Shown here: positions 6,001-9,000 of the stretch, one piece after another
Layout: each line of letters begins with the position of its first letter
Position numbering within the stretch: the first letter of the stretch is position 1
Source of the DNA: a virus
Lineage: Duplodnaviria; Heunggongvirae; Uroviricota; Caudoviricetes
Virus record (IMG/VR): IMGVR_UViG_2548876964_000017
Location: 1-11,276 of that record
Reading direction: 5' to 3' (one strand)
Length of the DNA stretch: 11,276 bases
Made by a program: the position numbers

Positions 6001-9000
6001 CATCGATCGTACAGAACAGATAGTGAAACCAGCCATACTGAGGCGCACGAAAACGCCTCCCCTGCTTAATTTCCGGGTCGGCTTCAGAATTGTGGGATTT
6101 TATGTGTTGTGTCATCGGATTCTCCGGTGACAGCAGGTGTCAGTTGTTCAGGCTGACTGCGCGAATTGTAAGGCAATACGCCGGAATGTACAAACAGAAA
6201 ACCCGTCAGTAAGACGGGCTTAACAAGCAGGGGCGGTTACTTTAATAATTTCAGTGCCTTTACATCAACTTCAACACTGCTCAGGTCTTTATCAATTTCA
6301 CCCTCAATTCTTACTTTGTCTTTCGGAGAAACATTCTGCCCGGCCCATACGCTGTCATCAATATCCGTGACAATTGTCCCGCTATTGTCACGAAACTCAT
6401 AACGTTCATCACCCACTTTTTTAACGATGCTCCCTTCAAGGATAACCCATGCATCATCCTTCAGTTCTTTTGCCTGCGCTACTGTTGAACGCTCTGCTTC
6501 TGGCCCCTGGAAACCACCCTGCTGTGCAAAAGCGCCAAAAGACACACCGGAAATAAGTGCTGCAATCAATACCTTTTTCATTCATAGTCCTCTTTCAGAG
6601 ATGAACATTCAAACAGCATTTTCAGTATGGTAAAGCGCGGGTGCGTTGAGGATGCCTGACACATCAGAGGTGGCGGGAGATTACTCCCCCGCCTGGTCTC
6701 TTACTTCTCAGATTCGTAGTCTACGAAGACAGCGACCTCCGTCTGACCGGTTCGGATTCGCACCTCGCAGAGGTCTTTCCTCGTTACCAGTGCCGTCACT
6801 ATGACGGTTAAACAGATGACGATCAGGGCGATTAACATCGCCTTTTGCTGCTTCATAGCCTGCTTCTCCTTGCCTTTCGGCACGTAAGAGGCTAACCTAC
6901 ATGTGTTCAGCATGGATTGAGCCTCAGATTAATGTTAAGCGTCTTGCAGGACGCGTAATGTTAACTGGGGCTTTTCTCTATCTGCCGTTGGTGTTCATGC
7001 CCGAGGCAGATAGCCTCAAGCACCCGCTGCAATTCTACTTAACTATCCTTTTCCCGCAAACCGTTTTTATCCCCAGCGGCAAATCGAATACTCCACCAGC
7101 GCCACCGCCATCGCAATTCCTACCGTTGTGAATGCTTCAGGCCAGGTCATTGATTCACCTCCTGCGGCGGTTCTGGTAGCGACATCCAGTGGGTTGCTTG
7201 CCTAAGATCATTACCCGGACTAACTGCTATACCTCCGCGCCGGAACGTGCCTCCGAGATAGCGTGCGGAATATATTAATGGCCCAGCCTCGCTATCGATA
7301 TTCATCGAAATAAGCACGTTCTGGCTCTTTTCAGGCATTCGCTCAGTACAGCTTATCCAGCCATCCAGAGTTATCGGAGATCTGGTTGACGTTTCCGAGA
7401 TTTCCCGAAAATTGTTGGTTGACGAATTCTTATTTTCCCGAAAGTTTCCGGCCTGAAGCATGGCGACGCGGCAGGCGTTCCAGCCATCAGCATATGTTTT
7501 AGTTACACCGTCGAGATGGCAGGTAAGCAAATCCATTTCATCAGGCACTACCATTGCTATCGGCTCTGCTTCCAGTGATGCCAGCGCGATACGAAACACA
7601 TTAGCCAGCAGGCTGTCTGAAGACTTGTTATCGTGCGCCGAGTCGCTCAGGAAGCCTGTGATGTATGATTTAATCTCCGCGCGTTCTCTGGTAATAGTGC
7701 TCATATCAGTTTTCCTTATACGGATTAATTTTATTGTGCAGTGCGCTGAATGATTCCCATGTCACATCGGTATATAGCTCAATAACTGGTTCAAATGTCC
7801 TTCCAATTATCCAGACCAGTAATAGCGGGGATATCGGTATCATCAACACTATAAACAGAATGAAAAACAGAAACTCTGTTGTTCTGCTCTTTCGTGGGTA
7901 ATTTTTTTCTAAATAATGTTTCATTTCTTACCGCCCTTTCGGGCGGCCTCCTGATGTTCTGAGGGTGCAGGAATCCCTCCGGTTAAGGATTTAATAAAAA
8001 TCGTTTCTGATTTAAATCTTCAGTATTTAGTTGTTAGTTGGTTTATCGCCTTTATGCTTCAGCCTTATTTCGCAACCAGACACAAACCGGGCCATCTTCC
8101 GTATCATGAATGGAACCAATAAACCAGCCATCGCCCTCTGGTCGTTCCGGTTCCCATGCAGAAATATCAGCATCACACGCATCAAGGTCAGCACATCCTT
8201 CATCTCTGAAGCAGAGGACGTATTGAAGATTATTTTCCTCCATCCAGGCGTTAAACTCTTCCGTTGAAATATATTCCCGACCATCACAGAATTTTTCATA
8301 TTCAGGATGTGTCCAGTAGCCATATCCGTCACGAACTACCGGCATTTCTTTAATTTTACTCACTGTTAACCTCCTGCAACGCTACACGATACGCCTTCTT
8401 TATCCACGCCTTACTGCCATATAATTTCGTCTTCATAATAAACACACCTGCACGACTCGCCGATATCCCCGGACAGGTTAACAGCACAGCATCCACCACA
8501 CGGTTATGCTTCCGAAACTCCATTACAGTACTGCTGATAACCACCTGCCCCACCGGGCCGTAATCCTGATACAGGATTTTCACGCAGACACCCTCCTGTC
8601 GAAATAAACGTAGTTATTCACTATGCGCAGCGGCATGCCTAATTTTCTGGCAATTTCCCTTCTTTGCATGCCTCTCTGATGCAGTTGCCGCGCCAGCTCA
8701 ATATCACGCTGAGAATATTTTGCCGACGGGTGAAAATCACCACGTAACATCATGCTGATGCCCAGCTCCCGTGCCTTCGTTCTCACTGCCGCTTCAGTTC
8801 GTCCGATAAGTGCGCCAACGCTTTTTACCTTCATCGTTCCCGCACACTGCCGGAGTATCATGATTTCCGCCCGGCACCACGTCTTCCACCCACTCACCGC
8901 TGCTGTTCTCTGGTGGCGGTAATATCCCGGAGAATATCCCGGCACTTGTTCAGCTCCCGCAGCGCGGCGCAGACTCGCTCCCACTTCTGAACCTGACCTT

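What the first reader, a model, noticed from the sequence alone, without database searches (positions are those of the whole stretch)
7147..7950. Coupled small membrane protein and DUF551 protein behind a structured leader
A 72-aa hydrophobic protein ends 1 nt before the DUF551 start. Its own start codon is preceded by a GC hairpin (7931-7946) sitting between an AGGAGG and the ATG, which could gate translation. The DUF551 gene also contains an imperfect ~33-bp tandem repeat (7384-7449; motifs GGTTGACG and TTCCCGAAA each recur with a 33-bp offset). Small membrane protein plus soluble partner is a recurring layout in phage exclusion and abortive-infection pairs.
Basis: partly seen in the sequence, partly recalled or inferred. 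Interest (0 to 1): 0.45.

Follow-up and report, generated by a model that had tools for sequence, protein, structure and literature searches.

The report
Prophage gene pair behind portable hairpin leader
The two genes are a common, already annotated accessory pair of lambda-like prophages with no known function; the more interesting part is the small RNA hairpin in front of them, which belongs to a conserved leader reused ahead of many unrelated prophage genes and probably folds a distant ribosome-binding site next to the start codon.

Summary
All the sequence features are real at the stated coordinates. The window is a Rac-like lambdoid prophage of E. coli O111, all genes on the minus strand. 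The 72-aa gene is a Pfam DUF4014 single-pass membrane protein. Its partner is an EaA-family mosaic protein with a C-terminal DUF551 domain. They are joined by TGA-T-ATG. An overlooked, conserved 27-aa membrane peptide overlaps the DUF551 stop (ATGA).

DUF4014 is followed by an EaA-like gene within three genes in 34 of 37 distinct contexts, including phages epsilon15, ES18, g341c and 933W. Other genes are often inserted between them, and the DUF551 domain is replaceable.

The '33-bp repeat' is weak (23/33). It encodes a linker (NFRENKNSSTN/NFREISETSTR) shared by many EaA proteins.

The hairpin is not specific to this pair. AGGAGG plus CCGCCC-GAAA-GGGCGG is the core of a conserved leader found in 2619 of 5426 complete E. 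coli genomes, ahead of at least six unrelated gene families. The start codon always lies 6-11 nt after it.

The geometry (22 nt reduced to 5-6) matches the split ribosome-binding site of T4 gene 38. No evidence supports an exclusion or abortive-infection role, although the same slot holds defence-like genes in one relative.

The parts
7925..8051 (-). Untranslated leader between the 103-aa upstream gene (8052-8363) and DUF4014. The widely conserved core is about 7922-7995.
   Evidence: Sequence. The core (query positions 61-134) is found in 2619 of 5426 complete E. coli genomes, at 4192 places. It lies ahead of unrelated genes. No promoter or terminator consensus. No Rfam family.
7961..7979 (-). 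Leader hairpin 1: GAGGG / 9-nt loop ATTCCTGCA / CCCTC.
   Evidence: Predicted in the 81-nt and 157-nt folds. 99.2% of cells are paired across 49 distinct copies, with G.U variants. One GAGTG/CACTC double change is seen in L142. The 5' arm was fixed by the search pattern.
7947..7952 (-). Shine-Dalgarno AGGAGG. GGAG is invariant in all 49 distinct leader copies.
   Evidence: Invariant columns G41 G42 A43 G44 in alignment A3.
7931..7946 (-). Leader hairpin 2: CCGCCC-GAAA-GGGCGG, a 6 G-C pair stem with a GNRA tetraloop. It fills most of the 22-nt gap between the SD and the ATG.
   Evidence: Variants in relatives are mostly C-to-U in the 5' arm (G.U kept). The loop changes GAAA to GGCA. There is one A-U compensation.
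7706..7924 (-). DUF4014 gene, 72 aa. Single-pass membrane protein with a basic N-terminus, a TM segment at about residues 18-41, and a conserved C-terminal helix and tail ending LHNKINPYKEN.
   Evidence: Pfam PF13198, 87.2 bits. phrog_1832. RefSeq WP_000683609.1. Charge and hydropathy. AlphaFold2 pLDDT 80.6, helices 14-28 and 31-66. Invariant residues.
7702..7708 (-). Coupling junction TGA-T-ATG. The last codons AAG GAA of DUF4014 give an AAGGAA SD-like element.
   Evidence: TGA-N-ATG is present in nearly all E. coli contexts. The Salmonella phages have AGGGAGGACTAA-CCC-ATG.
7147..7704 (-). EaA-family mosaic gene, 185 aa. Modules: N-module residues 1-49 (..RIALASLEAEP), middle module, linker, and C-terminal DUF551 domain (residues 115-181 = 7162-7362).
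   Evidence: Pfam PF04448, 72.5 bits. phrog_60. Modular alignment A5. 7029 homologous clusters. In the AlphaFold2 model only the C-terminal beta domain is confident.
7381..7446 (-). Two 33-nt units encoding NFRENKNSSTN / NFREISETSTR. This is the interdomain linker of EaA-family proteins.
   Evidence: 23/33 identity against a shuffle maximum of 22. TRF negative. The linker GNFRENKxSSTNNFREIxETSTNS is conserved in most aligned homologues. It is modelled as disordered, pLDDT below 50.
7067..7150 (-). Overlooked 27-aa hydrophobic ORF (MTWPEAFTTVGIAMAVALVEYSICRWG). Its ATG overlaps the DUF551 stop (ATGA), behind AGGAGGTGA.
   Evidence: Length is fixed at 27 aa in most of more than 130 copies. Two versions at 70% nucleotide identity differ by 9 synonymous and 9 conservative codons. 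It is in GenBank as BAI36462.1 but absent from the RefSeq annotation.

Best explanation
This is an ordinary accessory ('ea'/exo-xis type) gene module of lambdoid and P22-like phages. Here it occupies the variable cargo slot between the replication genes and hok/sok of a Rac-like E. coli prophage.

Three proteins appear to be made as one translationally coupled chain:
- a DUF4014 single-pass inner-membrane protein (N-terminus in, conserved C-terminal helix out);
- an EaA-family mosaic protein ending in a DUF551 domain;
- a 27-aa membrane peptide.

Ribosomes load at a portable, conserved leader. Its GGAG lies 22 nt from the AUG, and the 16-nt GNRA hairpin between them loops out. That brings the SD to 5-6 nt from the start codon, a split ribosome-binding site as in T4 genes 38 and 25. 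Ribosomes are then passed on at UGA-U-AUG and at AUGA.

Shown: gene identities, the coupling junctions, synteny, the leader's portability and conservation, and its geometry. Inferred: that the hairpin is needed for initiation, and that the proteins act together. Their biochemical function remains untested. The most likely role is early-phase modulation of the host envelope or physiology, not a recognised defence system.
For: Gene identities: Pfam, PHROG and RefSeq.

Coupling: junctions read. TGA-N-ATG is kept in nearly all contexts.

Synteny:
- An EaA-like gene lies immediately downstream of DUF4014 in 15 of 37 distinct contexts, and within three genes in 34 of 37.
- DUF551 lies within three genes in 26 of 37.
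- The same order holds in epsilon15 gp46-gp47, ES18, g341c and 933W L0067-L0065.

Leader:
- The exact SD-plus-hairpin motif precedes DUF4014, DUF7167, two EaA-like families, a DUF1133/Q-like family and others. The start codon is always 6-11 nt after the hairpin.
- GGAG is invariant while its flanks vary.
- In a sample chosen without reference to hairpin 2, 17 C-to-U cells in the 5' arm (G.U kept) contrast with 1 G-to-A cell in the 3' arm.
- The loop change GAAA to GGCA stays GNRA, and there is one G-C to A-U compensation.
- Hairpin energy is -15.5 kcal/mol.
- DUF4014 copies that lack the hairpin have GGAG 6-7 nt from the start, the same spacing as the looped-out form.

Precedent: T4 gene 38, 22 nt reduced to 5; gene 25, 27 reduced to 11 (PMC3014915).

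Cargo slot: five relatives with the same backbone carry different genes behind the same leader.
Against: - No experiment or expression data were available.
- The formal covariation test is not significant. 97.4% of cells are paired against 97.3% in shuffles, with a single double-sided change. Structure conservation therefore rests on the G.U asymmetry and on few independent events.
- One gene family (Q-like) has its own GGAG after the hairpin, so the upstream GGAG is not always needed.
- A few copies have non-GNRA loops or internal mismatches.
- A 4-bp UCCU/AGGA pairing could mask the SD.
- About 24 nt of exact identity could be maintained simply because it serves as a recombination joint.
- Nothing links the three proteins physically.
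Confidence: 0.55

Rival explanations
1. The SD-plus-hairpin core is mainly a recombination linker. It would be a short identical sequence at module borders that lets lambdoid prophages swap cargo genes by homologous recombination. Its position next to start codons would follow only from genes being exchanged as whole cistrons.
For: - Sequences diverge immediately 3' of GGGCGGT. In one class they also diverge immediately 5' of TCAGGAGG, leaving about 24 nt shared between otherwise unrelated flanks.
- At least six different upstream genes and at least six downstream families flank it.
- Relatives with an identical backbone carry different cargo behind it.
Against: - A pure DNA linker does not predict the strand-asymmetric C-to-U tolerance, the GNRA-preserving loop change, the invariant GGAG, or the tight 6-11 nt distance to the next start codon.
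- The two roles are not exclusive.
Confidence: 0.2
2. One reading: the membrane protein and the soluble DUF551 protein form a phage-exclusion or abortive-infection pair, with the hairpin gating expression.
For: - The layout is a small membrane protein plus a soluble partner, tightly coupled.
- The module sits in a variable cargo slot that, in strain ST866, holds genes matching PADLOC PD-Lambda-2_C and cll models.
- hok/sok lies next door.
Against: - No PADLOC match for DUF4014, DUF551 or the 27-aa peptide.
- The module also lies in the exo-xis / ea early-left region of lytic-competent phages such as 933W, epsilon15 and ES18. There it is expressed as an early phage gene, not a lysogen gene.
- No promoter was detected in the leader.
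- The DUF551 partner is often displaced or replaced.
- DUF551 proteins (7029 clusters) vastly outnumber DUF4014 (122).
- Many DUF4014 copies are frameshifted.
Confidence: 0.12
3. The hairpin acts negatively or conditionally. Possible forms are a thermosensor or switch in which upstream UCCU (7986-7989) pairs with AGGA of the SD, or a pause, processing or stability element for the early transcript.
For: - The minimum-free-energy fold of the 81-nt leader pairs UCCU with AGGA around hairpin 1.
- The AATCCTTAACC segment is highly conserved.
- A stable GNRA hairpin could protect RNA ends.
Against: - The masking helix is only 4 bp.
- It is absent from the class of copies in which an upstream gene ends 10 nt before the hairpin.
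- There is no U-tract, so it is not an intrinsic terminator.
- No Rfam family matches.
Confidence: 0.08
4. DUF4014 is a small membrane inhibitor of an O-antigen modifying enzyme, as once annotated for epsilon15 gp46 ('O-polysaccharide acetyltransferase inhibitor'). This would resemble other small phage proteins that alter LPS.
For: - Source names on homologues.
- A review states that epsilon15 was proposed to encode acetyltransferase inhibitors that were never investigated.
- Small phage proteins (Gnarl1-3, 40-90 aa) do alter O-antigen.
- The bitopic topology has a conserved periplasmic tail.
Against: - The annotation was never tested, and RefSeq has since renamed it.
- DUF4014 is not one of the Gnarl proteins.
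- It is common in E. coli prophages with no link to group E1 O-antigen.
Confidence: 0.05

Closest known systems
Split translation-initiation regions of bacteriophage T4 genes 38 and 25 (Nivinskas et al. 1999; Malys and Nivinskas 2009; reviewed in PMC3014915)
   Same: The SD lies too far from the AUG in the linear sequence, and a stable hairpin sits wholly within the spacer and restores functional spacing. T4 gene 38 goes from 22 nt to 5; here it is 22 nt to 5-6.
   Different: The T4 elements belong to one gene each and have been validated by mutation and probing. This element is untested. It is a near-identical cassette reused ahead of at least six unrelated gene families and present in about half of E. 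coli genomes.
epsilon15 gp46-gp47, ES18 gp39-gp38, g341c 23-22 and 933W L0067-(L0066)-L0065: the 'ea'/exo-xis accessory genes of P22-like and Stx phages
   Same: A DUF4014 gene of 72 aa is followed at 1-3 nt by an EaA-like protein that often ends in DUF551. There is 47-76% protein identity to the window's DUF4014.
   Different: In those phages the pair lies in the early-left region near int/xis, and DUF4014 is coupled to an upstream gene without any hairpin. Here it lies in the early-right region behind the leader cassette.
DUF551-containing proteins YfdS (CPS-53 prophage) and the Stx-phage Ea22 V2 variant
   Same: They share the C-terminal DUF551 domain, described as a portable domain of unknown function.
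   Different: The N-terminal parts differ. The reported phenotypes (H2O2 sensitivity of a yfdS mutant; suppression of over-initiation by yfdQRS) have not been examined for this protein.
Linker or boundary sequences proposed for modular exchange in lambdoid phages (Susskind-Botstein modular theory; from my own knowledge, not checked here)
   Same: A short conserved sequence sits at gene borders, flanked by interchangeable modules.
   Different: This one shows signs of selection at the RNA level and a fixed relation to start codons.
Lambda nut boxB hairpin (GCCCU-GAAAA-AGGGC; from my own knowledge)
   Same: A G+C-rich stem with a GNRA-like purine loop. A boxA-like TCCTTAAC lies upstream.
   Different: It has a tetraloop rather than a pentaloop, a 6-bp stem and no U-A closing pair. 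It lies far from the early promoters, occurs up to 6 times per genome, and always abuts a start codon.

Membership tests
Pfam DUF4014 (PF13198) | Full-length match to the family profile above the gathering score | tested here: met
   87.2 bits against a cut-off of 23.2; residues 1-72 match profile positions 1-72.
Pfam DUF4014 (PF13198) | About 72 aa with one hydrophobic helix and the conserved tail LHNK[IL]NPY | tested here: met
   Alignments A1 and A4; hydropathy; AlphaFold2 model.
Pfam DUF551 (PF04448) / P22 EaA-like proteins | C-terminal DUF551 domain above the gathering score | tested here: met
   72.5 bits against a cut-off of 22; residues 115-181.
Pfam DUF551 (PF04448) / P22 EaA-like proteins | N-terminal module with the ..RIALASLEAEP.. 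motif shared by EaA-like mosaics | tested here: met
   Residues 38-48. Found in 31 of 54 distinct proteins downstream of DUF4014 genes.
Split ribosome-binding site (T4 gene 38/25 type) | SD more than about 15 nt from the start codon in the linear sequence | tested here: met
   22 nt between G7947 and A7924.
Split ribosome-binding site (T4 gene 38/25 type) | A stable hairpin wholly inside the spacer that restores 5-11 nt spacing | tested here: met
   -15.5 kcal/mol. 6 nt are left, or 5 with the G.U pair. Spacers are 6-11 nt in all gene families behind the cassette.
Split ribosome-binding site (T4 gene 38/25 type) | Structure conserved among relatives | tested here: inconclusive
   G.U-preserving asymmetry, a GNRA-preserving loop change and one compensatory pair. 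The shuffle control is not exceeded.
Split ribosome-binding site (T4 gene 38/25 type) | Stem-breaking mutations lower translation and compensatory mutations restore it | not testable with these tools
   Needs reporter assays, toeprinting or structure probing.
Known anti-phage defence / abortive-infection systems | Homology of a component to a catalogued defence protein | tested here: not met
   No PADLOC hit at E up to 1 for DUF4014, DUF551, the 27-aa peptide or the two upstream genes.
Known anti-phage defence / abortive-infection systems | Location in a defence hot spot | tested here: inconclusive
   In ST866 the same slot holds genes matching PD-Lambda-2_C and cll. In four other relatives it holds uncharacterised genes.
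Known anti-phage defence / abortive-infection systems | Protection against, or abortive response to, phage infection | not testable with these tools
   Needs phage-challenge assays.
Intrinsic (Rho-independent) terminator | G+C-rich hairpin followed by a U-tract | tested here: not met
   The scan finds none in 6600-8700. The hairpin is followed by UAAGAAAUGAAAC.
Tandem repeat | Head-to-tail copies detectable by Tandem Repeats Finder | tested here: not met
   No array at minimum score 30. There are only two units at 70% identity.
Rfam families (any described cis-regulatory RNA or sRNA) | Covariance-model match in the leader | tested here: not met
   None at gathering score. The best sub-threshold hit is an unrelated eukaryotic element, E = 0.056.

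The most novel reading that the evidence does not exclude
The conserved ~70-110-nt leader (A/T-rich segment, hairpin 1, GGAG, GNRA hairpin 2) is a portable 'cargo adaptor' of Rac-like and other lambdoid prophages. It would be both a split ribosome-binding site that guarantees translation of whatever cistron is placed behind it, and the homologous joint through which accessory genes are swapped into the early operon. Those genes include the DUF4014-EaA module and, in some strains, defence-like genes.
Probability: 0.3. Interest if true: 0.6.

Novelty: new member of a known kind. Interest (0 to 1): 0.38.

Why it matters
The gene pair itself adds little. Both families are annotated, widespread and of unknown function, and nothing here points to defence.

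The leader is the useful lead. If its hairpin works as a split ribosome-binding site, this would be a natural example outside the T4-like phages. It would also be a reusable cassette rather than a gene-specific oddity, present in roughly half of sequenced E. coli genomes.

The leader also marks the left edge of a variable cargo slot upstream of hok/sok. That gives a simple sequence handle for cataloguing prophage accessory genes, including the unannotated 27-aa and 43-aa membrane peptides found here.

Tried and rejected
- Tandem Repeats Finder on 7000-8100: nothing.
- Promoter and terminator scan of 6600-8700: nothing in the leader.
- Rfam at gathering score and at E up to 10: no family in the leader.
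- PADLOC on five window proteins: no hits.
- PDB sequence search with the DUF551 protein: only a chance hit at E = 0.98.
- Literature:
  - 'DUF4014' returns no paper.
  - 'L0067' with '933W' returns none.
  - The hairpin sequence as a text string returns none.
  - The epsilon15 genome paper (PMC2698709) is not held, so I could not read the basis of the 'acetyltransferase inhibitor' label.
  - The Gnarl paper's supplements contain no DUF4014 sequence.
- The genome-contig scan returned only two loci, so the comparative work rests on IMG/VR contigs, GenBank phages and complete E. coli genomes.
- Formal covariation counting on 49 distinct leader copies did not exceed the shuffle control.
- A lambda-type nut site, an intrinsic terminator and an RNase III site were each considered for the hairpin. 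All were rejected on loop and stem geometry, the missing U-tract and the short stem.
- Hairpin-2 invariance in the loci comes from the search pattern itself and was not used as evidence.
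Full report
**Where the window comes from.** Bases 6900-8400 are 100% identical to chromosomes of E. coli O111 and related Shiga-toxin-producing (STEC) strains, for example NC_013364. In RefSeq the region is a Rac-like lambdoid prophage. Every gene relevant here is on the window's minus strand. The order is:
- replication genes;
- DUF1627;
- small hypothetical genes;
- 'DUF4014 family protein' (WP_000683609.1);
- 'DUF551 domain-containing protein' (WP_000104474.1);
- Hok/Gef;
- a YgiW/BOF-family gene;
- DUF968;
- RusA;
- a DUF1133 Q-like gene;
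- tRNAs.

Parts of the 1.5-kb query occur in 4354 of 5426 complete E. coli genomes. Only 500 genomes carry it nearly whole, so the region is mosaic.

**Checking the observation.**
- The 72-aa ORF is 7706-7924.
- Its TGA (7708-7706) is followed by one T and then the ATG of the 185-aa gene (7704).
- AGGAGG is 7952-7947. The hairpin CCGCCC-GAAA-GGGCGG is 7946-7931. The ATG is 7924.
- The hairpin folds at -15.5 kcal/mol, and 0 of 200 shuffles fold as well.
- Its 19-nt core is unique in the window, with 0 expected by chance.

The '33-bp tandem repeat' exists but is weak. The two units are 7446-7414 and 7413-7381, and 23 of 33 bases are identical. The maximum over 200 codon shuffles is 22. Tandem Repeats Finder reports nothing. 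The units encode NFRENKNSSTN / NFREISETSTR.

**What the genes are.** The small protein is a full-length member of Pfam DUF4014 (87.2 bits) and of phrog_1832. The larger one carries DUF551 at residues 115-181 (72.5 bits) and matches phrog_60.

DUF4014:
- The N-terminus is basic (5 K/R against 2 D/E in residues 1-17).
- There is one very hydrophobic segment at about residues 18-41.
- The C-terminal 31 residues are net acidic and end in the near-invariant LHNKINPYKEN.
- AlphaFold2 (pLDDT 80.6) gives helix 14-28, a proline kink, and helix 31-66.
- By the positive-inside rule this is an N-in, C-out bitopic inner-membrane protein. That is an inference.

The DUF551 protein is a mosaic of:
- an N-module (residues 1-49, ..RIALASLEAEP..);
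- a middle module (..VVPDEM..GWNACRxAMLQ);
- the repeated linker;
- the DUF551 beta domain.

Alignment with 34 homologues shows each module being swapped, inserted or deleted independently. It also shows the linker GNFRENKxSSTNNFREIxETSTNS conserved across many of them. The 'repeat' is therefore an old, shared, probably disordered linker (pLDDT below 50), not a feature of this gene.

DUF551 has no solved relative by sequence. The model has no informative structural neighbour. The literature describes DUF551 only as a portable domain of unknown function, present in YfdS and in one Ea22 variant.

**Does the pair travel together?** I collected 82 DUF4014 loci from IMG/VR and two genomes. I added phages 933W, epsilon15, g341c, ES18 and D6. 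These give 39 distinct contexts, of which 37 are readable downstream.
- The next gene starts 1 nt after the DUF4014 stop (TGA-N-ATG) in nearly all E. coli copies.
- In the Salmonella phages it starts 3 nt after (TAA-CCC-ATG).
- An EaA-like gene (N-module) is immediately downstream in 15 of 37, and within three genes in 34 of 37.
- DUF551 is immediately downstream in 8 of 37, and within three genes in 26 of 37. Pfam confirmed DUF551 in 16 of 38 distinct downstream proteins.
- The interlopers are an 87-aa gene, a 95-aa gene (933W L0066), a 121-aa gene whose sequence shows HNH-endonuclease-like Cys/His motifs (one of the downstream proteins scanned matched Pfam HNH, but the output does not say which) and a 123-aa gene.

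The order DUF4014 then EaA-like also holds at 47-50% protein identity in epsilon15 (gp46-gp47), ES18 and g341c. The linkage is therefore real and old. It is a linkage to the EaA N-module rather than to DUF551, and it is loose.

The dependence runs one way. DUF551-type proteins form 7029 clusters, against 122 for DUF4014.

In those phages the module sits in the early-left 'ea'/exo-xis region. In the window it sits in the early-right operon.

**A third, overlooked gene.** The DUF551 stop overlaps an ATG (ATGA, 7150-7147), which is preceded by AGGAGGTGA. It opens a 27-aa hydrophobic ORF (7067-7150).
- The ORF keeps exactly 27 codons in most of more than 130 copies.
- It exists in two versions only 70% identical in DNA. 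They differ by 9 synonymous and 9 conservative codon changes.
- This is the pattern of a real coding sequence.
- It is deposited in GenBank (BAI36462.1, 'hypothetical protein') but is missing from the RefSeq annotation.

The unit is thus a chain of three cistrons joined by UGA-U-AUG and AUGA.

**The hairpin is a portable element.** Two classes of DUF4014 gene exist.
- In one class (933W, epsilon15 and others) DUF4014 is coupled to an upstream gene (..GGAGAGTGA-T-ATG) with no hairpin.
- In the other class it is preceded by TC[AG]GGAGG-CCGCCCGAAAGGGCGG-T..ATG.

I searched IMG/VR for the exact SD-plus-hairpin string. In these loci the element precedes unrelated genes:
- DUF4014;
- a 60-aa acidic protein (RefSeq DUF7167);
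- two EaA-like families (MTELTKEQLIEE.., MQ[ED]IKENIRQQ..);
- a Q-like family (M[EG]ITKERLLEIANLSD..);
- MAELTKEW.. and others.

Spacers between the hairpin and the start codon are 6, 7, 8, 9, 9 and 11 nt. Usually the element is the 3' end of a longer conserved leader: an A/T-rich segment, AATCCTTAACC, hairpin 1 (GAGGG/CCCTC), AGAACA, TCAGGAGG and hairpin 2. At least six different genes lie upstream of that leader.

The ~70-nt core of the window's leader is found in 2619 of 5426 complete E. coli genomes, at 4192 places and up to six per genome.

**Is the hairpin selected as RNA?** The loci are identical in the hairpin by construction, so I did not use them for this question. I drew a second sample with a pattern in the hairpin-1 flank. 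That gave 49 distinct 64-nt sequences.
- GGAG is invariant, while the bases on either side of it vary.
- Hairpin 2 has 16 variant forms.
  - Eight keep every pair: C-to-U giving G.U at four different positions, GAAA to GGCA (still GNRA), and one G-C to A-U compensation (CCACCC/GGGTGG).
  - Two change only the loop.
  - Three lose the closing pair.
  - Three carry internal mismatches, all in the lineage that also contains the compensated form.
- C-to-U in the 5' arm accounts for 17 cells. The mirror change, G-to-A in the 3' arm, would break pairing and accounts for 1 cell.

This asymmetry is what selection for pairing in the sense-strand RNA predicts. However, the formal test is not significant. 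97.4% of cells are paired against 97.3% in shuffles, with one double-sided change. The number of independent events is also small. I rate structure conservation as suggestive.

**How it most likely works.** In the linear sequence the SD is 22 nt from the AUG, which is too far to work. With the 16-nt hairpin folded, 6 nt remain, or 5 with the G7947.U7930 pair. That equals the GGAG-to-AUG distance in the hairpin-less DUF4014 copies.

This is the arrangement shown experimentally for T4 gene 38 (22 nt reduced to 5) and gene 25 (27 reduced to 11). In those genes, stem-breaking mutations lower translation (PMC3014915).

Three observations favour a translational role over a purely recombinational one:
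- the invariant GGAG;
- the constant 6-11 nt distance to the start codon across unrelated genes;
- the stability of the stem.

The roles can coexist. Sequences diverge immediately on both sides of a ~24-nt core, so the element also looks like a module joint.

There are caveats.
- The Q-like family has its own GGAG after the hairpin.
- A weak UCCU/AGGA pairing could mask the SD.
- Nothing was tested experimentally.
- It is not an intrinsic terminator, because it has no U-tract.
- It is not a described RNA family.

**Context: a cargo slot.** Five relatives share the backbone (replication genes, then the leader, then hokD-DUF968-RusA) but carry different genes behind the leader:

| Strain | Cargo behind the leader |
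|---|---|
| AVS0971 | DUF7167 plus seven genes, including a coupled DUF4014 followed by an 87-aa gene |
| ST866 | Unannotated 43-aa hydrophobic ORF starting 8 nt after the hairpin, then two genes matching PADLOC models cll and PD-Lambda-2_C |
| FRIK1989 | Other hypothetical genes |
| GN04592 | Other hypothetical genes |
| uk_P46212 | DUF7167 and other hypothetical genes |

The window's module is thus one of many alternative cargos. This is the only observation that lends any support to a defence reading, and it is guilt by location only.

**The exclusion / abortive-infection idea.** Several results weigh against it.
- No protein of the module matches any PADLOC model.
- The module is an early gene block in lytic-competent phages.
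- The partner is replaceable.
- Many DUF4014 copies are frameshifted at an A7 run.

An older label on epsilon15 gp46, 'O-polysaccharide acetyltransferase inhibitor', persists on some homologues. A review states the proposed inhibitors were never investigated. The small O-antigen-altering Gnarl proteins are unrelated to DUF4014. I keep both readings as low-probability rivals.

**Verdict.** The genes are already-known families of unknown function.

The leader is best filed as a new, untested member of the split ribosome-binding-site kind. Its unusual property is that it is a reused cassette at the head of a prophage cargo slot. Interest is moderate to low for the pair and moderate for the leader.

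Noticed in passing
window 7067-7150 (-): Conserved 27-aa hydrophobic ORF overlapping the DUF551 stop (ATGA) behind AGGAGGTGA. It is present in GenBank (BAI36462.1) but not in the RefSeq annotation. The window copy has V20E in the hydrophobic stretch, where most copies have V.
   Followed up: yes
window 7922-8051 (-); loci L089-L259: The whole ~70-110-nt leader (A/T-rich part, AATCCTTAACC, hairpin 1, GGAG, hairpin 2) is a conserved intergenic cassette in 2619 of 5426 complete E. coli genomes, with variable genes on both sides. Some copies have a further CTGAAT..ATTCAG inverted repeat in the A/T-rich part.
   Followed up: partly
L261 (E. coli ST866) 3001-4945: In a relative with the same backbone, the leader is followed 8 nt after the hairpin by an unannotated 43-aa hydrophobic ORF (MLTLKHFIDIPTWLAVIAF..). 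Next come an sce7726-family gene and a 'beta family' gene that match PADLOC cll and PD-Lambda-2_C. The slot upstream of hokD is a variable cargo region.
   Followed up: partly
window about 7900-7908 (-), codons 6-8 of DUF4014; IMG/VR loci L038-L064: The A7 run (GAAAAAAAT) is A6, a frameshift, in 8 of 45 copies of the window's allele. It is also A6 in 24 of 35 and 1 of 7 copies of two other alleles. Alleles with an interrupted run show no such variants. This could be a slippage hot spot, a clonal pseudogene or an assembly error.
   Followed up: partly
window 6701-7025 (-): A hok/sok type I toxin-antitoxin locus lies directly downstream. The Pfam HOK_GEF match is in ORF 6701-6913 (RefSeq's 51-aa Hok is 6701-6856), and the Rfam sok match is at 6851-7025 (113.5 bits).
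   Followed up: no
window 1196-1386 and 1466-1712 (-): An Rfam STnc100 sRNA match (138 bits) and three tRNA genes lie in the prophage late-regulatory region.
   Followed up: no
window 6237-6581 (-): A YgiW/BOF-family (bacterial OB-fold) gene is carried as prophage cargo between hok and the DUF968 gene. Its hydrophobic N-terminus (MKKVLIAALISGVSFGAFA) looks like a signal peptide, so the product may be periplasmic; that was not tested.
   Followed up: no
L006 (phage D6) 2483-2938: In the P1-like phage D6 the DUF4014 reading frame runs on into a 79-residue C-terminal extension (151 aa in all) instead of stopping at residue 72.
   Followed up: no
window 7706-7715 and 7147-7165 (-): The near-invariant last residues of DUF4014 (..YKEN, codons AAG GAA) also form the SD-like element for the next cistron. 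Likewise the DUF551 tail (..PQEV, CAG GAG GTG) forms the SD for the 27-aa ORF. Part of their conservation may reflect this double use.
   Followed up: partly
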